A stretch of DNA of 64,000 nt from Parcubacteria bacterium C7867-001 (GTDB lineage: Bacteria > Patescibacteriota > Minisyncoccia > Phycocordibacterales > Phycocordibacteraceae), in assembly GCA_001189095.1 (NCBI GenBank), contig LFCK01000001.1, positions 149,251-213,250 on the forward strand. Reading direction: 5' to 3'. Of the stretch, positions 7,192 to 56,642 are shown piece after piece. The notes under the pieces are model-generated. The model ran no database searches, was not told where the DNA came from, and saw only the letters and a list, made by a program, of their open reading frames with translations. The position numbers and the translations under genes are program-made. Within the stretch, counting starts at the first letter, position 1. The number at the start of each line of letters is the position of its first letter.

Positions 7192-9657
7192 ATGGCTAAG
7201 AAGGAAGCACCGGAAACGCCTCCGCAGAATGCGGCACAGGTCATAGAGCAGAGCATTGTCGGCGAGATGCGCTCGTCGTATCTCGACTATGCAATGTCCG
7301 TCATCACGAGTCGCGCGCTTCCGGACGTTCGTGACGGTTTGAAGCCGGTGCATCGCCGCATCCTCTACTCGATGTATGAAAACGGGAACACGGCGAGCGG
7401 TCGCACGAAGAAATCGGCAACGGTGGTCGGCGACGTGATCGGTAAGTATCACCCGCACGGCGACGTTGCTGTGTACGACGCGATGGTAAAGCTCGCTCAG
7501 GAATTCACGACACGTTATCCGCTCATCATCGGTCAAGGTAACTTCGGTTCGGTCGACGGTGATCCACCGGCAGCCTACCGCTACACCGAAGCGAAAATGT
7601 CGCGCCTCGGCGGCTCTTTGCTTGATGATCTCGATAAGGAGACGGTGTCGTGGAATCCAAACTACGATGGCTCGAAGAAAGAGCCAGTGGTGCTTCCGGC
7701 GACAGTTCCGAACCTTCTCCTCAATGGCACGCTCGGCATCGCCGTCGGTATGGCGACGAATATTCCGCCGCACAATCTGCGCGAAGTGGTTGCAGCAACC
7801 ACGCACCTCATCGATGACTCGTCAGCAACCACCGACGATCTCCTTGAGTTCGTGAAGGGTCCTGACTTCCCGCTTGGTGCCGTTGCGTTCAATCAGGCGG
7901 ACATTAAGCACGCCTATGTAAACGGTAAGGGCGGCGTGGTCGTGCGCGGCGAGGCGGAAATCATCGAAGAGAAGAAGGGAACCATCATCGTCATCACCTC
8001 CATTCCGTTCCGCGTGAACAAGGCGGATCTCATCACCCGCATGGCAGAACTCGTGCATGAAAAGAAGCTTGAGGGCATCAAGGACCTTCGCGATGAATCG
8101 ACCGACGACATCCGTGTCGTGGTGGAACTCAAAGGTACGGCGCATCCGCAGCAGGTCTTGAACGCGCTCTACAAGCATACCGAGCTCGAGAGCACCTTCC
8201 ACTACAACATGCTCGCGCTTGTCGACGGCGTGCCGCAGACACTTTCTTTGAAGGGCATCCTCGAGCAGTTCATCAAGCATCGCCGCGAGGTGGTGAAGCG
8301 CCGCACGGAATACGATCTTAGGAAAGCGGAAGAGCGCGAGCATATTCTCCTCGGCCTCTCCAAAGCACTCGATCATATCGATGAAATCATCGCGATCATC
8401 AAGAAGTCGAAGGATGTTCCGGAAGCGGACGCGGCGCTCCAAAAGAAATTTAGTTTCTCTGAACGCCAGACGGCCGCCATCCTTGCGATGCGTCTCCAGA
8501 CGCTCGCTGGTCTCGAGCGCAAGAAAATCGAAGACGAACTCACGGAAATTCAGGAACTCATCAAGAAGCTGAAGAAAATCCTTTCCTCGGAAAAGAATAT
8601 CCTCGCCGTTGTTCGCGAAGAGCTCGTTGCGGTCGCTGAGAAGTACGGCGACGATCGCCGCACGAAGATCGTGAAGGGTGGCGTAAAAAATATTTCCATA
8701 GAAGACATGGTGCCGGATGAGGAGTCCGTGCTCGTGATTACTGCAGGCGGATACGTGAAGCGCACGAATCCGAATGAATACAAAGCGCAGAAGCGTGGCG
8801 GCGTCGGCGTTATCGACATGTCGACCAAGGAAGAAGATGTGGTGACGCATTTCCTCTCCACCAGTGCGCATTCGGATCTCCTCTTCTTTACCGACTACGG
8901 CAAGGTGTACCAGACGAAGATGTACGACATTCCGGAAGGACGCCGTGCAACCAAGGGAAAGTCCATTATGAACTTCCTCCCGCTTGCGGCCGACGAAAAG
9001 GTGACGAGCGTTTTGCCGGTGCCGAAGGGAGCCGAGCGCGCTGCGCTTTCGGTGGTACTTGTGACGGACGCCGGTGTCGTGAAGAAGGTCGAGGCGAAAA
9101 ATTTTGCAGACGTGCGTCGCTCGGGCATCATCGCTATCAATCTCAAAGCGCCAGACAGGCTCGTTTCCGCAAACCTTGCGGGCACGGGCGACAGCGTTTC
9201 CATCGTTACCTCCGCTGGTCAATCAATTCGTTTTGACGAAGAAGAAGTTCGCGCAATGGGACGCACGGCAGCGGGTGTCCGCGGCATGAGCGTGAAGAAA
9301 GGAGACTATGTCGTCTCAGCGGAAGTCATTCCGGCAAACGCAAAGAAAGCAGCGCTCCTTGTCGTCATGGAGAAGGGTTACGGCAAGCACACTGATATGG
9401 ATGAATATAAGGTGCAGGGTCGCGGCGGCTCCGGAATAAAGACGGCGGACGTGACCGCGAAGACGGGAAAGATTATCGGTGCGAAAGTTCTCGCAGGCGA
9501 GGATTTGAAAGTAGAAGAAATCGTCGTCATTTCGAAGAAGGGACAAGTCATCCGCGTTTCAGCATCAGAAATCCCATCACTTTCGCGCGCGACGCAGGGC
9601 GTACGCATTATGAAAATGCGCGAAGGGGATTCCATCGCTTCCATGGTCGCTCTGTAG
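7192..9657 (+). CDS. gyrA: DNA gyrase subunit A
   Basis: Canonical GyrA blocks: [37 protein letters not shown] (active-site Tyr), [14 protein letters not shown]. 821 aa with C-terminal beta-pinwheel repeats. Confidence 0.95.
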
Positions 9658-9794
9658 TTCCTCCGAAAATACGCCATCTGCTGCGTTGCGGAGCCTCCCG
9701 ATTTCTTCCAAGGAACTGATTTTTTAGTGATCGAAAATAATACAGCAAATAAGCCATACTTTTAGCACTCTGGGTGGACATTTTTTAAAAGTAC

Positions 9795-9822
9795 TTGACA
9801 AATTTAGTGGTTTGTGTATATT
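9795..9822 (+). promoter_or_regulatory. Near-consensus sigma70 promoter (TTGACA - 16 nt - TATATT)
   Basis: TTGACA at 9795-9800 and TATATT at 9817-9822. Predicted TSS around 9829-9831 (gggagaagg). Confidence 0.55.
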
Positions 9823-9829
9823 GGGAGAA

Positions 9830-10370
9830 GGTTAGTCAAGTGGGATGCCGTTTGTTTTGGAGGTACCGGGCAACCGGGAGACCACTCAAGCGCCGCACTG
9901 GCTTTGGAACTGCTGGGATGCTTCTGGGGGCACTCGTTGCCTTTTGGACAGGGGATCTTAGCGGTGAAGGAGACAGAAACGGACCGTCGTAGGGCCTCGA
10001 AACCCTCGATCAGAGGTCCGCAGCAAGAGCGGACAGCAGGCATCTGCACTCTGACGTTGTTCTTTTGAAACGTAAAACAAAAGAGGTAACCAGGTTGGAC
10101 TTCGGGCGATTTTCGCTCGGTCCGCTGCGAGGCGCTTGTCGCCCGCAGAAAATCTAACCCCTGGATGAGTCGCGTGCGACTCATGGGTAGCCGGATAAAC
10201 GCGGCGTGGGTCTCTAATGACTTGCGCACATCGCGTCCCAAAACCGGTAGGCAAATGAAACGAGCCTCGGAATCGGAAGTTGGCTTCGAACACCAACTCT
10301 GACGACGAAACAGTTCACCCCGAAGGGCCGACTCGCACTTAGTTGCGACGAGGCCCTTTATCTTTTTCTA
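9830..10370 (+). ncRNA. Candidate ~540-nt structured non-coding RNA or long leader (family unknown)
   Basis: ~700 bp without a credible ORF in an otherwise tightly packed genome. GC-rich with many local hairpins. Bounded by the promoter above and by a weak hairpin plus U-tract (cgaggccctttatctttttc, ~10325-10370). No RNase P, tmRNA, SRP or 6S signature found by eye. Confidence 0.3.
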
Positions 10371-10404
10371 TGCTAAGCTGCCCGACGGAAGAAAGGAGAA
10401 CGAC

Positions 10405-10701
10405 ATGTTTTCGGTCGAACATATCGATACGGACCGGGTGCTCGCACCCGGTGAACGCGTTATTTACTTCAGAGGCTATCTCGCCAAGTACCAACTCGGC
10501 ACGTATGGCGTGGCTGGCGTGAATCGCGAGTGGGCGTGGAAGCAGCACCGCGAAGGCCGTGCCATCCTCGTGCAGCGGCGCATGGGGCCGAATGATTTCG
10601 AATACATCGCTATTGGCCGAGCGCGTCCTGAGCGCAAGGACAATGTCGTCGACATCAAGAAGCGGCCGTACAATCGTGAACGTCGCCTTCCGGAACTGTA
10701 A
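10405..10701 (+). CDS. Hypothetical protein (98 aa)
   Basis: AAAGGAG SD 7 nt upstream of the ATG. Followed by a strong hairpin terminator at 10728-10748. Confidence 0.55.
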   Translation: MFSVEHIDTDRVLAPGERVIYFRGYLAKYQLGTYGVAGVNREWAWKQHREGRAILVQRRMGPNDFEYIAIGRARPERKDNVVDIKKRPYNRERRLPEL

Positions 10702-10727
10702 GTTCCAGTTTTCAGAAAATAACGGGC

Positions 10728-10800
10728 GCCGCGTAGCGGCGCCCGTTTTCTAAAACCTCTAAAATCGAAGTTTGTTAATTACGGGCGCCGCTACGCGGCG
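10728..10800 (+). terminator. Two copies of the same 9-bp-stem GC hairpin (gggcgccgc-NNN-gcggcgccc) 52 nt apart in inverted orientation, each followed by a T-tract
   Basis: 10728-10748 has loop gta and 10780-10800 has loop tac. The second is the exact reverse complement of the first. Confidence 0.6.
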
Positions 10801-10820
10801 CCCGTGTTATTTTTAGCGTA

Positions 10821-11354: not shown

Positions 11355-12646
11355 GACCTTTCCAAACCAGCATAATTGCAGTATTCATCATTTTCGCGCT
11401 GCTCGGTCTCTTCGTCTTTGCGACCTATAGCGGCTTTGGCGGCAGCAAGACTTCGGTGGGGAAGATACAAATCTGGGGCACGCTTCCTCAGGACGGCATG
11501 GATCAGGCAATCAGCATTCTCTCGCAAGCGAATAAAGACTATAAGGACATAACCTACAAGCAGTATCCTGCCGCATCCTTTGATGCGGAGCTCGCGAATG
11601 CTATTGCCTCGGGTGCGGGTCCTGATCTCATCATCATTACGCAGGAGCAGTTGCTCTTGGAGGCTTCAAAGCTCACCACTGTTTCCTTCAAGACGCTTCC
11701 GCAGCGTACCTATGTAAATACGTACATTCCCGAAGCGTCGCTCTTCCTTGGTGCTGATGGAACGTACGGCGTTCCGTATGTCGTCGATCCGCTCGTAATG
11801 TATTTCAATGAATCCATGCTTGCGTCTGCCGGTGTCGCGACACCGCCGACTTCGTGGGAAGCTGTGAATGCTCTTGCGCCGAAGCTCACTAAGCAATCTG
11901 CAAACCAAACCATCACGAAGAGTGCGGTCGCTTTCGGAGGTTATGGAAACGTGAACAACGCGCGTGCAATCGTTTCGCTCCTTTTGCTCCAATCGGGCAA
12001 TCAAATTTCCCAGCAAGCTTCGCAAGGTATGCGTTCAACGCTCTCAGATGCGCCGTCGGGCACCTTCGGTGCTTCTCCGGCGGAAGCGTCGCTCAATTTC
12101 TACACGCAGTTCGCAAATCCCTCGAAGACCACCTACTCGTGGAATGCGTCGCTACCGTCTGCGCGCCAAGCATTCCTCTCGGGCGATCTCGCGCTCTATT
12201 TCGGCTTTGCTTCCGAGCGCCCGTTCCTCGAAGAAGCGAACCCGAATCTTCGCTTCGACATGGCGCGGGTGCCGCAGCCGGCAGCCGCGAGCTCAAGAAT
12301 TTCTTACGCGAACCTCTACGCATTCGCGGTACCGAAGGCTTCGAAGAATCCTACCGGCGCCTACAAGACGGCGCTCGCGCTGACCGATACGGATCCGCTT
12401 CTCGCCGCGGCCTACGGCATGGGACTCGCACCCGCAAAACGTGCGCTGCTTTCTCCAGCAACAGATGATCTTTTCGGTCCAGTCTTTTATCCAGAAGCAC
12501 TCACTGCGCAGGGCTGGCTGTCCCCAGCGCCTGCAAGTACGGACCGCATCTTTGCCGGTATGATAGACACTGTAGTCACCGGCAGGGGCGATTCGCAGGA
12601 CGCGCTTCAATCCGCCGAACAATCATTCAATGCTGCATTCCGCTAA
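11345..12646 (+). CDS. Membrane-anchored extracellular solute-binding protein (ABC-transporter SBP-like)
   Basis: N-terminal TM anchor (IIAVFIIFALLGLFVFA). 433 aa with overall SBP-like composition (WEAVNALAPKL..., GYGNVNN...). Family assignment by resemblance only. Confidence 0.6.
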   Translation: MSMRPFQTSIIAVFIIFALLGLFVFATYSGFGGSKTSVGKIQIWGTLPQDGMDQAISILSQANKDYKDITYKQYPAASFDAELANAIASGAGPDLIIITQEQLLLEASKLTTVSFKTLPQRTYVNTYIPEASLFLGADGTYGVPYVVDPLVMYFNESMLASAGVATPPTSWEAVNALAPKLTKQSANQTITKSAVAFGGYGNVNNARAIVSLLLLQSGNQISQQASQGMRSTLSDAPSGTFGASPAEASLNFYTQFANPSKTTYSWNASLPSARQAFLSGDLALYFGFASERPFLEEANPNLRFDMARVPQPAAASSRISYANLYAFAVPKASKNPTGAYKTALALTDTDPLLAAAYGMGLAPAKRALLSPATDDLFGPVFYPEALTAQGWLSPAPASTDRIFAGMIDTVVTGRGDSQDALQSAEQSFNAAFR

Positions 12647-12656
12647 TATTTTCTCC

Positions 12657-13376
12657 ATGAGGAACTTCATTCTTGCGTTCGCTCTTTTGTTGGCGGTGTT
12701 CTTTTCTCTTGGTATTCCTGCGTACGCTGCTGTCGGTACCGATAAAGATCCTGCGTGTCCGACGGGCGACCCGAAGACCTGTCCTTTTCCGGGCTCTCAA
12801 GTCTGTGAGACGGGAACTAATCGATGTATTGATAGTGGAAGCTGCGATTCTTCCAATGGTTCTTGTGATCCAAAATATGCTGCTAAAACTCAGACGGTCG
12901 GCGACGGGGAATCCTGCACAAACAACGGGATGCAAAAGTGTACACCTCCCGCAACCTGCAAGATTCAGCTGGGTCATTCAATCGGTAAATGCGTCGCTCC
13001 TGCTTCAGCTGCAGGTCAGACCTCGACTGACGTAAGTCCCGATGGCCAAGTCTCTCCAGAAACAAGCACAGGCGGTCAAAAGTCTCCTGATGTGACAACA
13101 AAGGGGAGTGGAGGGAAGCTCGAAAACCCACTCAATAACATTGATTCCCTCGAGGGTCTTCTCATGGCAGTTCTTCGCGCTGCCGTGACTCTCGGCTCTA
13201 TTCTCCTTGTCGTGGCAATCGTCTGGGTTGGCGCGCAGTTCGTCTTTGCGCAGGGTCAAGAAGAGAAGATACGTGAGGCGCGTAAGGCGCTCATGTGGAC
13301 CGTCATCGGCGGCCTCGTGCTTCTTGGTGCTGAAGCTATATCGATCGTCATTCAGGCGACCGTATCGACCTTATGA
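12657..13376 (+). CDS. Secreted Cys-rich protein with C-terminal T4SS-pilin-like (TrbC/VirB2-like) two-helix domain
   Basis: Signal peptide MRNFILAFALLLAVFFSLGIPAYA. About 14 Cys in the N-terminal half. C-terminal helix - QGQEEKIREARKAL - helix resembles the downstream paralogues. Confidence 0.65.
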   Translation: MRNFILAFALLLAVFFSLGIPAYAAVGTDKDPACPTGDPKTCPFPGSQVCETGTNRCIDSGSCDSSNGSCDPKYAAKTQTVGDGESCTNNGMQKCTPPATCKIQLGHSIGKCVAPASAAGQTSTDVSPDGQVSPETSTGGQKSPDVTTKGSGGKLENPLNNIDSLEGLLMAVLRAAVTLGSILLVVAIVWVGAQFVFAQGQEEKIREARKALMWTVIGGLVLLGAEAISIVIQATVSTL

Positions 13377-13636
13377 GTTTCGCTGAGCTTGTGGGGAATG
13401 TCATTGTTCCAATTGTGGACGGAGCTATCATTCCGCTTCTCTACGCGCTCTCCTTCATTTTCTTTCTCTACGGGGTAGTGAAATATTTCTTCCTTGCTGG
13501 CGAGGAGGCAAAGAACGAAGGGAAGACCTATGCCATTTTCGGCCTCGTTGGCCTCGTGGTGCTTTTTTCTGTCTGGGGCTTTGTTCGCCTCATTCTCCAC
13601 TCTTTTCTCGATTACGCGCTGCCGTTCGGGCTCTAA
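13373..13636 (+). CDS. T4SS-pilin-like small membrane protein (paralogue 1)
   Basis: Two hydrophobic helices flanking AGEEAKNEGKTYAIFGLVGL. Start codon overlaps the previous stop. 87 aa. Confidence 0.75.
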   Translation: MSFAELVGNVIVPIVDGAIIPLLYALSFIFFLYGVVKYFFLAGEEAKNEGKTYAIFGLVGLVVLFSVWGFVRLILHSFLDYALPFGL

Positions 13637-13687
13637 GCGCTGGGCATAACGTCTTGTTCCTTCATATTCCGCTGCTACCATAGACCT

Positions 13688-14071
13688 ATGGCCACCTCAT
13701 CACTTCCTGCAGCCCTCGTCCTCACGCTCGGTCAGCCGACCGTCTGGGGTCTTATCGGACAAATCATCGCGATCATCGATCAGGTGCTCGTGCCGCTCCT
13801 TTTCGCGGTCGCGTTCATTGTCTTCATTTACGGTGTTTACCAGTACTTCATTGCGGGTGGTGCCGATGAGGAGAAGCGAAAGAAAGGCCGTGAGCTCGTC
13901 ATGTATGGCCTTATTGGCTTCTTTATCATGATTACTGTCTGGGGTCTCGTGAACGTGCTTGTGGCGTCGCTCGGCTTCGGCTCGCAGAGCCGTCCTGCAC
14001 TCCCATGCTTCACGGGCTACTGCTCAGGAGGTGGTAGCGGCATAAACGTCAATATCAACATACCGCTCTAG
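13688..14071 (+). CDS. T4SS-pilin-like small membrane protein (paralogue 2)
   Basis: Core LVPLLFAVAFIVFIYGVYQYFIAGGADEEKRKKGRELVMYGLIGFFIMITVWGLVNVL. Gly-rich C-terminal tail. Confidence 0.75.
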   Translation: MATSSLPAALVLTLGQPTVWGLIGQIIAIIDQVLVPLLFAVAFIVFIYGVYQYFIAGGADEEKRKKGRELVMYGLIGFFIMITVWGLVNVLVASLGFGSQSRPALPCFTGYCSGGGSGINVNINIPL

Positions 14072-16466: not shown

Positions 16467-16553
16467 TAGGACCCTCCTGTTGGTTAATTCGTACCTCGGT
16501 TCTCAAGGTACTTCTGGTACTAAATTAAACAGAAATTACGCTAAAGTCAAGTG

Positions 16554-16637
16554 TGCCGAGGGTGGGAATCGAACCCACACGAACTTTCGTTCACGACGGT
16601 TTAAGCGTCGCGTGTCTACCAATTCCACCACCTCGGC
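16554..16637 (-). tRNA. tRNA-Leu (anticodon TAA)
   Basis: Cloverleaf folded by hand. Acceptor gccgagg/cctcggc. Anticodon stem cgacg/cgtcg with loop cttaaac. Long variable arm. T-loop ggttcgattcc. Confidence 0.85.
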
Positions 16638-16784
16638 AATTTCTACAGGGTACTCGGATACCCCTTCCGTATCAAATGCTTTATTGTTAGGATTGCTAAC
16701 ATTGCGCCCATATGGAAATTCCCATATGGCCGCTCGTTCGGCGCAAAAGAATGATACGTAGTATCATTCTTTTGACCTCACTTT

Positions 16785-16857
16785 GCGCCCATAGCTCAGT
16801 TGGTAGAGCAACTGCCTCTTAAGCAGTGGGTCCCAGGTTCGAGCCCTGGTGGGCGCA
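16785..16857 (+). tRNA. tRNA-Lys (anticodon CTT)
   Basis: Acceptor gcgccca/tgggcgc. D-arm gctcagttggtagagc. Anticodon stem actgc/gcagt with loop ctcttaa. T-loop ggttcgagccc. Followed by a long perfect hairpin terminator (16858-16902). Confidence 0.9.
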
Positions 16858-16910
16858 CAAAGACAGAAAAACCTGCCCTGCGGCAGGTTTTTCTGTCTTT
16901 GTGCGAGCCG

Positions 16911-16975
16911 CAGCCATGTTTTGTCAGTAGACAAAACGGCGAGGCGGGATCGCGGAATTTTGCGAGTGTCGACGA
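16911..16975 (+). repeat. Copy A of a ~65-nt conserved non-coding element (gttttgtcagYagacaaaacSgcgaggcgg ... gagtgtcgacgag)
   Basis: Second copy at 61110-61174 with the same two conserved blocks and a variable middle. Both copies sit next to tRNA sequence. Confidence 0.6.
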
Positions 16976-17003
16976 GCAAAAGATCTGTGATCACAAAATC
17001 CAG

Positions 17004-17085
17004 TGCCGAGGAGAGGACTCGAACCTCCATCCCTTGCGGGGCCTGCTCCTAAGGCAGGTGCGTCTACCAATTTCGCCACCTCGGC
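17004..17085 (-). tRNA. tRNA-Leu (anticodon TAG)
   Basis: Acceptor gccgagg/cctcggc. Anticodon stem cctgc/gcagg with loop cttagga. Long variable arm. T-loop ggttcgagtcc. Confidence 0.85.
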
Positions 17086-17092
17086 AATCTTG

Positions 17093-17164
17093 AGGCCCGA
17101 ACGGGAATTGAACCCGTGCATAGCGGGTTTGCAATCCGCCGCGTTACCACTTCGCCATCGGGCC
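17093..17164 (-). tRNA. tRNA-Cys (anticodon GCA)
   Basis: Acceptor ggcccga/tcgggcc. Anticodon loop ttgcaaa. T-loop ggttcaattcc. Confidence 0.8.
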
Positions 17165-40509: not shown

Positions 40510-40663
40510 AGTACACTCCTTTACGGACGCTAAAGTCCGTTTGTATATCATAGGACTATTGACGAAAAATGTCAACTACCTAAAACTTGCAATATATAGA
40601 GAACATGTTATTATAATCCGCGTTCTTTGACAGACGTTCATTCACCTTGAAAGGAGGTTGTTC

Positions 40664-55064: not shown

Positions 55065-55378
55065 AGCTGTTGGTAAGAGGGCTTCGCAAGGCCCTATATC
55101 TAAGCTAAGGTTCTAAAAGGTAGCGCAATTTGCTATCATAGTCCTTGTACAACAAAGACCTAACCTCTAGAAAACGCTTAGTTTCCTAGAGCATGGTCGG
55201 AATAACAAAACCGCTACAGTATAGAAGGCTCCTCGTCAGAGTCACTGTAGCGGTCGTGTACTCGAAAGGGTATATGGGTTAGGCCGAAAGGTCTGATCGC
55301 AATGGCGGGGAGCCTTCTGTCCCACGACTCTAGGCTCCCTGCTACTTATTAGCAGAAGCTAAAACCGCTACAGTGCAT

Positions 55379-56302: not shown

Positions 56303-56642
56303 TAGTTGTCCACAGCCCATCTTGGGACTAGGTTTTAAATTTCCCTTAAAACATAAAGGATTTTTACAAGGGCTTTCTAATGTTCAAAGTTAGAGACCAG
56401 TGTCTGTATCATTTTTGTGATAGCGTTAGCTCTAGAAGCACCAATCACATCAGACCTGATTCTGTGAGCCTAAGCCACTCGCACAATTAAATAAGCCAAT
56501 AAGTAAATCGTGACTTTCTCTACTTGTAGAGAAAGGTATTTCGATTTCTTTGCGGTTCGTCGAAAACCCACCAGAGAGTCGAAGTTAAACTTCGGAAATC
56601 TGGTGGATTTTTGCTTCTAATTACTTAGCTAATTAGAAAGAC

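What the first reader, a model, noticed from the sequence alone, without database searches (positions are those of the whole stretch)
9660..10400. ~700 bp gene-free region with a near-consensus promoter: candidate large structured RNA of unknown family
Most intergenic spacers in this window are under 150 bp, and many genes overlap. This stretch has no credible ORF on either strand. The longest are 65-145 aa Arg-rich frames with no SD. It has a textbook sigma70 promoter (TTGACA-16-TATATT at 9795-9822) pointing into it. It ends in a weak hairpin plus U-tract just before the SD of a small unknown gene at 10405. The body is GC-rich with numerous short inverted repeats, which suggests a highly folded transcript of about 540 nt. 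I checked by eye for RNase P CR-I/CR-V blocks, a tmRNA tRNA-like 3' end or tag ORF, SRP domain IV and 6S features. None were found. If it is a real RNA it may be a lineage-specific large ncRNA or a long regulatory leader.
Basis: seen in the sequence. Interest (0 to 1): 0.6.

Follow-up and report, generated by a model that had tools for sequence, protein, structure and literature searches.

The report
Orphan 540-nt structured RNA gene
The gene-free stretch after gyrA in this candidate-phyla-radiation (CPR) bacterium most likely encodes a ~540-nt non-coding RNA with its own promoter and terminator. It evolves about five times slower than neutral sites, matches no known RNA family, and is found in only two sister lineages.

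Summary
Positions 9658-10404 form the largest ORF-free stretch in the window (747 nt; next largest 340, median 64). It carries one of only two 11/12 sigma70 promoter matches in 64 kb and a strong two-tier intrinsic terminator (-21 kcal/mol). The genome is Parcubacteria bacterium C7867-001.

I found one diverged homologue, in a sister lineage (L081). Third codon positions of the flanking genes differ by 32-37%. The block from the predicted start (9829/9830) to the terminator U-tract (10368) differs by only 6.8%, with perfect runs of 59-68 nt. Its substitutions show no codon periodicity (13/13/11). All indels fall in predicted loops. Substitutions break far fewer predicted pairs than chance on the + strand (P=0.001 and 0.0004), but not on the - strand.

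Rfam (4227 families) and ARAGORN find nothing. The RNA and the downstream 98-aa gene (p98, a phage-type small protein with no Pfam family) form a 1.1-kb insertion. It lies in a hypervariable gyrA-methyltransferase hot spot and is absent from about 87 related loci.

Verdict: a real, selected, structured RNA of unknown family. It is probably a stand-alone ncRNA whose terminator read-through also feeds p98. A cis-acting leader is the main rival. Two sequences give no statistical power for covariation, so the fold is provisional.

The parts
9656..9727 (+). gyrA intrinsic terminator. Long hairpin AGUUCCU...AGGAACU followed by GAUUUUUU. It closes the upstream transcription unit.
   Evidence: Inverted repeat I8. 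Fold -17.1 kcal/mol. 9658-9709 is 100% identical in L081, which carries a 62-nt insertion in the loop.
9795..9822 (+). Sigma70-type promoter TTGACA-16-TATATT. Predicted start at about 9829/9830.
   Evidence: 11/12 match. One of two such sites in 64 kb, 0.76 expected. In L081 the -35 is identical, the -10 is TATACT and the spacing is the same, while the spacer and 9823-9829 diverge. Strong conservation begins at 9830.
9829..10368 (+). Candidate ~540-nt structured non-coding RNA (whole transcript).
   Evidence: 6.8% divergence from L081 against 32-37% at third codon positions of flanking genes. Substitution phase 13/13/11, with four 1-nt indels and one 6-nt indel. No Rfam or ARAGORN match. Structure-preserving substitutions on the + strand.
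9829..9904 (+). 5' domain. Extended imperfect hairpin capped by CCGG-GCAA-CCGG (GNRA tetraloop 9870-9873).
   Evidence: RNAalifold helices 1-5. The only loop change, C9871U, gives GUAA, still GNRA.
9910..9964 (+). Long hairpin with a variable apical loop (9933-9937).
   Evidence: Helices 6-7. Two one-sided changes keep pairing (C-G to U-G, G-U to A-U). Four of five loop bases are replaced in L081.
9986..10010 (+). Hairpin with a both-sided change at 9992/10005 (G-C to U-G).
   Evidence: Helix 10. Substitution list.
10062..10083 (+). Hairpin CUUUUG...CAAAAG with a compensatory swap at 10063/10082 (U-A to A-U).
   Evidence: Helix 13. Substitution list.
10125..10149 (+). Variable hairpin. The sequence is replaced and 6 nt shorter in L081, but a hairpin forms at the same place in both.
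   Evidence: Alignment. Independent folds of -15.6 and -11.8 kcal/mol.
10165..10320 (+). Most conserved 3' domain. Hairpin 10165-10184, then a multi-branch domain closed by GGGU/ACCC (10185-10188/10317-10320).
   Evidence: Only 4 substitutions in about 156 nt, with perfect runs of 59 and 68 nt. Covariance model R1 finds it only in the window and L081 among 1.08 Mb of related sequence.
10322..10368 (+). Intrinsic terminator of the RNA. Two-tier hairpin plus U-rich tail, 36 nt upstream of the p98 start codon.
   Evidence: dG -21.3 kcal/mol. Stems invariant in L081. Sequence conservation drops right after it (80.6% for 10369-10404).
10405..10701 (+). p98, a small basic protein of an unnamed phage-associated family. 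SD AAGGAG at 10393-10398. No promoter-like site was found between the RNA terminator and its start.
   Evidence: No Pfam, PHROGs, PADLOC or NCBIfam hit. 37 hits at E<=1e-3, including itself and two repeat-protein matches I set aside as spurious. Found in a phage early region. AF2 pLDDT 84. Best structural matches are uncharacterised Caudovirales proteins. 77% aa identity to the L081 copy.
10721..10747 (+). p98 terminator hairpin (GGGCGCCGC-GUA-GCGGCGCCC plus UUUUCU). It is a duplicate of the ancestral hairpin at 10781-10805.
   Evidence: -26.5 kcal/mol.
10765..10817 (+). Ancestral gyrA-MT177 intergenic module (TTGTTAATT-hairpin-GTGTTATTTTTA). It marks the right edge of the insertion.
   Evidence: The same module forms essentially the whole intergenic region in many relatives with short gaps and in L088.

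Best explanation
Positions ~9829-10368 (+) are a gene for a ~540-nt, highly structured non-coding RNA of a family not yet described.

Shown:
- It has its own near-consensus sigma70 promoter and a strong intrinsic terminator.
- The block between them is under strong purifying selection at the nucleotide level, with no coding signature.
- Substitutions and indels respect a + strand secondary structure: conserved stems, variable loops and one swapped hairpin.
- With the downstream p98 gene it forms a 1.1-kb lineage-specific insertion in a hypervariable hot spot between gyrA and a methyltransferase gene (MT177).
- p98 belongs to a phage-associated family.

Inferred:
- Most transcripts stop at the terminator and accumulate as a stable RNA.
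- A fraction reads through and is the only source of p98 mRNA.
- The RNA, not p98, is the most constrained payload of the cassette. It probably acts as a folded RNA or RNP (scaffold, decoy or catalyst), and not merely as a leader.
- Its molecular target is unknown.
For: - Promoter: 11/12 match, one of 2 in 64 kb. Both hexamers and the spacing are conserved in L081 while the spacer diverges.
- Terminator: -21.3 kcal/mol plus U-tract, invariant stems.
- Conservation starts at 9830 and ends at 10368, so the transcription signals delimit it exactly.
- Divergence is 6.8%, against 37/33/32% at third codon positions of gyrA, MT177 and p98. The 3' 190 nt have about 5 changes.
- No 3-nt periodicity (13/13/11, against 12/4/123 in gyrA). 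Four 1-nt indels.
- The 45-codon + ORF 10165-10302 has 4 changed bases, all amino-acid-changing, and no synonymous change.
- Structure predicted from one sequence alone, then tested with the other's substitutions: 7 of 17 touched pairs broken against 14.9+-2.3 expected (P=0.0012), and reciprocally 8 of 17 against 16.5 (P=0.0004). On the minus strand P=0.06 and 0.16.
- Consensus fold energy is -192 kcal/mol on the + strand and -156 on the - strand.
- All indels fall in unpaired columns. 10 of 332 paired columns are substituted, against 26 of 210 unpaired.
- The GNRA loop is kept (GCAA to GUAA). A hairpin is swapped at 10125-10149.
- No promoter-like site between the terminator and p98.
Against: - Only two distinct sequences exist. 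Formal covariation has no power: 148 of 166 predicted pairs never vary, and 120 of 500 shuffles reach the observed score. The fold is therefore a prediction.
- The folding z-score is ordinary for this genome.
- There is no expression data.
- No homologue was found in 80 syntenic relatives, 1.08 Mb of related loci, viral contigs, phage or plasmid collections, or JGI metagenome contigs. The element is therefore young or rare, and dispensable for close relatives.
- The position of the terminator, 36 nt before the p98 Shine-Dalgarno, fits a cis-regulatory leader equally well.
Confidence: 0.5

Rival explanations
1. The same transcript is a long cis-acting 5' leader of p98. The structured region senses a signal (a ligand, a protein such as p98 itself, or RNA polymerase in the manner of processive antitermination RNAs) and controls read-through of the terminator at 10322-10368. 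It therefore has no function apart from p98.
For: - The terminator sits 36 nt upstream of the p98 start, and no separate promoter-like site for p98 was detected.
- RNA and p98 are co-inherited in both lineages.
- The most conserved domain lies directly next to the terminator.
- A weak alternative pairing of the terminator 5' arm with 10262-10271 exists before the 3' arm is made (-59.2 against -55.9 kcal/mol).
Against: - At 540 nt it is larger than the cis-regulatory leaders I know of (my own knowledge), and no riboswitch or T-box model matches.
- The RNA is more conserved than the protein it would regulate: 6.8% nt divergence against 11% at codon positions 1 and 2 of p98, and 77% aa identity.
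- The candidate antiterminator gains only about 3 kcal/mol against a -21 kcal/mol terminator and has no comparative support.
- p98-family genes elsewhere (phage L093, loci L091 and L092) are preceded by protein genes. No homologue of this RNA was detected there or next to the other family members examined.
Confidence: 0.27
2. The low divergence is not selection. The segment was exchanged recently between the two lineages by recombination or transfer of the cassette. It would then be a non-functional spacer or decaying remnant that has not had time to diverge.
For: - The segment lies in a recombination and insertion hot spot whose content differs among nearly all relatives.
- Only two lineages carry it.
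Against: - Divergence within the cassette is strongly heterogeneous. p98 third positions are at 32%, the promoter spacer and the 10369-10404 segment are at about 20%, and the variable hairpins are close to 50%. Between them lie perfect runs of 59-68 nt. A recent exchange would give uniformly low divergence.
- The boundaries of conservation coincide with the predicted transcript start and the terminator.
- The substitutions preserve pairing on one strand only.
Confidence: 0.08
3. It is a protein-coding gene or pseudogene, for example the 187-codon open frame on the minus strand (10367-9807) or the 45-codon + ORF at 10165-10302.
For: The minus strand has an unusually long open frame in the window sequence (0 stops in 179 codons).
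Against: - Substitutions show no codon periodicity (13/13/11).
- Four 1-nt indels break every frame in L081, where the longest corresponding ORFs are 107 and 92 aa.
- The translated frame has no homologue among 5.8 billion proteins and no Pfam, PHROGs or PADLOC hit.
- No promoter-like site on the minus strand.
- The + ORF lacks a Shine-Dalgarno and has 0 synonymous against 4 non-synonymous base changes.
Confidence: 0.03
4. It is a DNA-level element, such as a recombination or attachment site, an origin of transfer or replication of a small mobile element, or a protein-binding array. It would be conserved as double-stranded DNA and not as RNA.
For: - Hot-spot location and a phage-type neighbouring gene.
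- Duplicated hairpins at the right edge of the insert.
Against: - 540 bp of near-uniform constraint bounded by a promoter and a terminator is not how the att or ori sites I know look (my own knowledge).
- There are no repeats or iterons.
- The strand asymmetry of pair-preserving changes, all six one-sided changes being interconversions between a G-U wobble and a Watson-Crick pair, points to RNA on the + strand.
Confidence: 0.05

Closest known systems
ROOL and GOLLD large non-coding RNAs (Rfam families; often in prophages or mobile contexts)
   Same: Size class (about 500-800 nt), many hairpins, independent transcription unit, accessory and patchy distribution, association with phage-type genes, and no known partner or function when found (the comparison rests on my own knowledge of these families).
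   Different: - No ROOL or GOLLD model, nor any other of Rfam's 4227 families, matches even at E<=10.
- Found in a CPR (Paceibacteria-like) bacterium.
- Only two sequences are known, so the fold lacks covariation support.
Type III toxin-antitoxin loci (ToxIN-like)
   Same: Gene layout: one promoter, a non-coding RNA, an intrinsic terminator, then a small protein gene that depends on read-through. Also the mobile and phage-related context (the layout of ToxIN is from my own knowledge).
   Different: - The defining tandem repeats of the antitoxin RNA are absent.
- p98 has no similarity to any model in PADLOC or Pfam, so none to the ToxN/AbiQ, CptN or TenpN toxins.
- The RNA is several times longer than the antitoxin arrays I know of.
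Terminator-controlling leaders (riboswitches, T-box, processive antitermination RNAs)
   Same: A structured RNA lies directly upstream of an intrinsic terminator that precedes the Shine-Dalgarno of the downstream gene.
   Different: - No family model matches.
- It is far longer.
- It is more conserved than the downstream gene.
- There is no convincing antiterminator.
Housekeeping RNAs of similar size (RNase P RNA, tmRNA)
   Same: Several hundred nt, own promoter and terminator, multi-domain fold.
   Different: - No Rfam or ARAGORN hit.
- Absent from the same locus in all close relatives, which rules out an essential housekeeping role there.

Membership tests
RNase P RNA (bacterial type A/B) | Match to the Rfam covariance models (P4 helix with CR-I/CR-V) | tested here: not met
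   No hit at gathering score or at E<=10 in 9600-10450, both strands.
RNase P RNA / other housekeeping RNA | Present in all related genomes | tested here: not met
   The element is absent from the syntenic locus in 80 relatives and in the 7 loci of the closest MT177 relatives. Only the +-6 kb around gyrA could be examined.
tmRNA | tRNA-like domain plus tag reading frame | tested here: not met
   ARAGORN finds only 7 tRNAs in the window, none here. No Rfam tmRNA hit.
SRP RNA / 6S RNA | Match to Rfam models | tested here: not met
OLE / GOLLD / ROOL / HEARO / raiA large ncRNAs | Match to the family covariance model | tested here: not met
   No match even at E<=10. These families are part of Rfam to my knowledge; the tool output does not list the families it holds.
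Group I / group II introns | Catalytic core (P7 region; domain V) recognised by Rfam models | tested here: not met
   The element also has its own promoter and terminator and is not inserted in a gene.
Riboswitch / T-box leader | Known aptamer or T-box model match | tested here: not met
Riboswitch / T-box leader | Mutually exclusive terminator and antiterminator pairings | tested here: inconclusive
   Only a weak alternative pairing (about 3 kcal/mol) with no comparative support.
Type III toxin-antitoxin (ToxIN-like) | Antitoxin RNA made of tandem direct repeats | tested here: not met
   No tandem repeats (TRF) and no direct-repeat family inside the RNA.
Type III toxin-antitoxin (ToxIN-like) | Toxin of the ToxN/AbiQ, CptN or TenpN family | tested here: not met
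   p98 has no PADLOC or Pfam hit.
Type III toxin-antitoxin (ToxIN-like) | Layout promoter - RNA - terminator - protein gene | tested here: met
   and the sequence.
CsrB/RsmZ-type protein-sponge RNA | Strong enrichment of GGA motifs in hairpin loops | tested here: not met
   15 GGA against 11.1+-2.8 in composition-matched shuffles (P=0.11). 10 of 235 genome windows have as many.
Conserved structured ncRNA (generic criterion) | Statistically supported covariation in an alignment of diverged homologues | tested here: inconclusive
   Two sequences only. 2 both-sided and 6 one-sided pair-preserving changes, 0 broken of 166 pairs, but no power. Substitution-placement tests are significant on the + strand.
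Conserved structured ncRNA (generic criterion) | Evidence of transcription with defined ends | not testable with these tools
   No expression data available. Only the promoter and terminator predictions exist.

The most novel reading that the evidence does not exclude
This is the founding example of a new class of large (~540 nt), multi-domain structured RNA. It is carried on a phage-derived mini-cassette in Paceibacteria-like CPR bacteria. It acts as a folded RNA in its own right (an RNA-only assembly, ribozyme, or RNP with the winged-helix-like p98), in the way that ROOL, GOLLD and OLE turned out to be ornate folded RNAs and not simple regulators.
Probability: 0.35. Interest if true: 0.65.

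Novelty: new variant of a known kind. Interest (0 to 1): 0.45.

Why it matters
- Large structured bacterial RNAs outside the housekeeping set are rare, and each new class has revealed unexpected RNA architecture or biology.
- The papers I searched described no comparable large structured RNA for CPR/Patescibacteria, whose genomes are small and tightly packed. A 540-nt non-coding gene kept under stronger constraint than its protein neighbour is therefore notable there.
- It also marks the gyrA-methyltransferase junction as an insertion hot spot for small phage-type cassettes.
- Its value is limited by the narrow distribution (two lineages), the uncultured host and the lack of covariation power.

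Tried and rejected
- Rfam at gathering thresholds and at E<=10: only chance-level hits (flavi_FSE 17 bits, Proteo-phage-1, Mu-gpT-DE), all rejected.
- ARAGORN: nothing.
- nhmmer, blastn and tblastn of the region and of p98 against 80 gyrA-syntenic loci: nothing.
- Covariance model of the 3' domain against 1.08 Mb of related loci: only the window and L081.
- Paralogue in the window: none.
- Exact 20-23-mers from conserved runs in viral contigs: none.
- Pseudo-protein trick: conserved RNA frames back-translated into degenerate patterns and scanned.
  - Viral contigs: no confirmed relative.
  - Metagenome contigs: no confirmed relative. Both metagenome scans returned exactly 600 candidate stretches, which I take to be a cap, and the first used poorly chosen patterns. 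This negative is therefore weak.
- blastn against the phage and plasmid collections: none.
- Protein search with the 187-codon minus frame: none.
- Folding z-score as evidence: rejected, because the genome background is similar.
- GGA-sponge idea: rejected.
- Tandem-repeat antitoxin idea: rejected.
- Known RNAs in the ORF-poor gaps of relatives: only one tRNA, in L073.
- p98 function:
  - Single-sequence AF2 model was useless (pLDDT 43).
  - The afdb50 library was unavailable.
- Literature searches for large ncRNAs in Parcubacteria or Patescibacteria: nothing relevant.
Full report
**1. What is in the sequence**

The window comes from Parcubacteria bacterium C7867-001, a CPR bacterium of the Paceibacteria/Kaiserbacteria type. 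The downstream 98-aa ORF (p98) and the neighbouring methyltransferase (MT177) are 100% identical to proteins of that MAG, and gyrA relatives are all Patescibacteria MAGs.

gyrA (7192-9657, Pfam DNA_topoisoIV plus six gyrase C-terminal repeats) is followed by 747 nt without a credible gene. Then comes p98 (10405-10701), which has no Pfam family. With the spurious minus-strand ORF discounted, this is the longest ORF-free stretch in the window. The next largest are 340 and 308 nt, the latter holding a LOOT RNA, and the median gap is 64 nt.

The promoter TTGACA-16-TATATT at 9795-9822 is confirmed. It is one of only two 11/12 matches on either strand of the whole 64 kb, where 0.76 are expected.

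Upstream of it, 9656-9727 folds into a gyrA terminator followed by a U-run.

At the other end, 10322-10359 forms a two-tier hairpin of -21.3 kcal/mol followed by AUCUUUUUCU. This is a good terminator, not a weak one. It lies 36 nt before the p98 start, whose Shine-Dalgarno AAGGAG is at 10393-10398.

- GC content is ordinary.
- The folding z-score (about -2.8 to -3.0 on both strands) is matched or exceeded by 10 of 49 background windows of this genome.

**2. Known families**

Rfam 15 (4227 models) gives nothing at gathering thresholds. At E<=10 it gives only three chance-level hits of 14-17 bits. ARAGORN finds no tRNA or tmRNA here. There are no tandem or direct repeats inside the region. GGA motifs are not enriched. 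So this is not RNase P RNA, tmRNA, SRP RNA, 6S RNA, any riboswitch or T-box in Rfam, a group I or II intron, OLE, GOLLD, ROOL, HEARO or raiA, a repeat-type antitoxin, or a Csr-type sponge.

**3. Comparative evidence**

I fetched 80 gyrA-syntenic loci from related species (75-84% GyrA identity). The order lactamase-fold gene, small ORF, gyrA, [gap], methyltransferase MT177, p433, pilin-like genes is conserved. Neither the non-coding region nor p98 has any match in these loci.

The gyrA-MT177 gap is hypervariable. It ranges from 25 to 3787 bp and holds unrelated small ORFs, an ORF family that looks like IS200/RAYT-type transposases (by eye only), and once a tRNA. Relatives with short gaps show the ancestral intergenic module, TTGTTAATT-hairpin-GTGCTATTTTTA. 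The window keeps this module at about 10765-10817. So roughly 9658-10765 is an insertion.

The closest relatives found through MT177 (85-86% identity) fall into two groups:
- L082-L087 have only a 61-nt gap.
- L088 has a p98-like gene directly upstream of MT177, but the contig is cut inside that gene.

Copies from other samples of the same species are identical to the window (L089, L090). One diverged copy exists, L081 from Logan run DRR274965, found through the only close homologue of p98 (77% aa identity).

**4. Selection**

Between the window and L081, divergence is as follows:

| Region | Divergence |
|---|---|
| gyrA, third codon positions | 37% |
| MT177, third codon positions | 33% |
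| p98, third codon positions | 32% |
| Intergenic 9738-9777 | 30% |
| Promoter segment 9795-9828 (both hexamers conserved) | ~20% |
| 10369-10404 (after the terminator) | ~20% |
| Block 9829-10368 | 6.8% |

The block has perfect runs of 59, 68 and 61 nt in its 3' half. High conservation begins at 9830, the predicted start, and ends at the terminator tail. The transcription signals therefore delimit the conserved block.

The 37 substitutions fall 13/13/11 over the three phases, against 12/4/123 in gyrA. There are four 1-nt indels and one 6-nt deletion.

The 187-codon open frame on the minus strand of the window is broken in L081. It has no relative among 5.8 billion proteins.

The 45-codon + ORF at 10165-10302 has no Shine-Dalgarno. 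It has four changed bases, all amino-acid-changing, and none synonymous.

The region is therefore constrained at the nucleotide level and is not coding.

A recent exchange between the lineages cannot explain this. Divergence inside the cassette is strongly heterogeneous: variable hairpins near 50% and p98 third positions at 32%, next to invariant runs.

**5. Structure and strand**

RNAalifold on the two + strand sequences gives 166 pairs, none broken. Six one-sided changes are all interconversions between a G-U wobble and a Watson-Crick pair. Two pairs change on both sides: 9992/10005 (G-C to U-G) and 10063/10082 (U-A to A-U). Consensus energy is -192 kcal/mol. The reverse complement gives -156 kcal/mol and has to avoid the variable positions.

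Because that structure was fitted to both sequences, I also ran an unbiased test. I folded one sequence alone and then scored the other's substitutions against it.

| Structure from | Strand | Touched pairs broken | Expected by random placement | P |
|---|---|---|---|---|
| Window | + | 7 of 17 | 14.9+-2.3 | 0.0012 |
| L081 | + | 8 of 17 | 16.5+-2.6 | 0.0004 |
| Window | - | 12 of 17 | 16.3+-2.4 | 0.06 |
| L081 | - | 10 of 12 | 12.8+-2.3 | 0.16 |

Further points:
- I expect, though I did not tabulate it, that most of the broken pairs lie in the hairpin at 10125-10149. That hairpin is replaced by a different, shorter hairpin in L081.
- All indels fall in unpaired columns.
- Paired columns are substituted four times less often than unpaired ones.
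- The GCAA tetraloop at 9870-9873 becomes GUAA, still GNRA.

Formal covariation statistics have no power with two sequences. The architecture is provisional: a 5' hairpin domain, a long hairpin, several short hairpins, a variable hairpin, a highly conserved multi-branch 3' domain at 10185-10320, and the terminator.

**6. The neighbour p98 and the nature of the cassette**

An exhaustive HMMER search returned 37 hits at E<=1e-3. These include p98 itself and two repeat-protein matches I set aside as spurious. The rest are mostly small proteins of 70-130 aa sharing the core PGE.IVY.RGYLA...AW..Y..GR..LVQRR.G..DYEYIAIGR. None has a Pfam or NCBIfam family for this core. Three are fused to domains with Cro-, LexA- or MarR-type HTH matches, the latter two weak.

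One member sits in the early or replication region of a phage, next to GcrA, an MT-A70 methylase, a DnaB-type helicase and a terminase. Others lie in the same gyrA-MT177 hot spot of other Paceibacteria (L092, L088). Where the upstream sequence is available, these members are preceded by protein genes. No homologue of the RNA was detected in any of these loci.

The alignment-based AF2 model is confident (pLDDT 84). It resembles uncharacterised Caudovirales proteins. Its resemblance to winged-helix domains is only weak.

So the cassette is of phage or mobile origin, and the RNA is not an obligatory partner of the p98 family.

**7. How it most likely works**

Shown:
- An autonomous promoter and terminator.
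- A strongly selected, non-coding, + strand-structured 540-nt block.
- No separate promoter-like site for p98.

Inferred:
- Most transcripts end at about 10365 and accumulate as a stable structured RNA.
- Read-through supplies p98 mRNA. This layout resembles type III toxin-antitoxin loci, although their defining repeats and toxin families are absent.
- Because the RNA is more constrained than p98, I consider it the main functional product (confidence 0.5).

The main rival is a cis-acting leader that controls the terminator (0.27). I found only a weak, unsupported antiterminator pairing.

Minor rivals are recent exchange without function (0.08), a DNA-level site (0.05) and a coding gene (0.03).

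**8. Novelty and limits**

The RNA belongs to no described family and occurs in a phylum where the papers I searched report no comparable large RNA. It resembles the known kind 'large accessory structured RNAs of mobile elements' without being a member of any family.

Limits:
- Only two sequences.
- A narrow distribution.
- No expression data.
- Both metagenome scans returned 600 candidate stretches, apparently a cap, so absence elsewhere is only weakly shown.

Noticed in passing
window 55157-55298 (+): Rfam LOOT RNA (RF03000) match just above threshold (50.4 bits against 46.4 gathering). It lies in a 308-nt ORF-free gap (55065-55372). A further 340-nt ORF-free gap follows at 56303-56642.
   Followed up: no
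window 9658-10820; loci L001-L088: The junction between gyrA and the MT177 methyltransferase gene is a hypervariable insertion hot spot across this Paceibacteria-like clade. The gap ranges from 25 to 3787 bp, with mostly unrelated small ORFs.
   Followed up: partly
gyrA-MT177 gaps of L015, L054, L066, L077 and L073: Four gaps share an ORF family that looks like IS200/RAYT-type transposases (judged by eye from the sequence motif, not tested against a family library). The L073 gap holds a tRNA (8681-8753, minus strand).
   Followed up: no
window 10721-10747 and 10781-10805: Two copies of a perfect 9-bp GC hairpin (GGGCGCCGC-NNN-GCGGCGCCC) lie 59 nt apart, with the loop inverted (GTA against TAC). 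The right copy is part of the ancestral intergenic module seen in relatives. The left copy serves as the p98 terminator. This suggests duplication during insertion of the cassette.
   Followed up: partly
window 10405-10701; proteins P0123-P0158; loci L091-L096: p98 defines an unnamed family of small proteins (core PGE.IVY.RGYLA...LVQRR.G..DYEYIAIGR) with no Pfam or NCBIfam model. Members occur in phage early regions and are sometimes fused to HTH domains with Cro-, LexA- or MarR-type matches. The predicted fold is confident (pLDDT 84) but has no significant PDB match.
   Followed up: partly
window 9658-9709; L081 997-1048 and 1049-1110; L058 gap: The 52 nt right after the gyrA stop are 100% identical between the window and L081, although neutral sites differ by about 35%. 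L081 has a 62-nt insertion in the loop of this terminator-like hairpin. An 87-nt stretch of the L081 gap that spans this region is 77% identical to the gap of L058.
   Followed up: no
window 12630-14071 and downstream: An array of at least three paralogous small genes with T4SS_pilin (PF18895) domains follows p433. The array is conserved, with copy-number variation, in relatives.
   Followed up: no
window 40546-40575 (-): The only other 11/12 sigma70 promoter match in the window (TTGACA-17-TATGAT). It lies at the 5' end of a minus-strand ORF, in the divergent intergenic region 40575-40658.
   Followed up: no
window 16553-17164: A cluster of four tRNA genes (Leu-taa, Lys-ctt, Leu-tag, Cys-gca) on both strands.
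   Followed up: no
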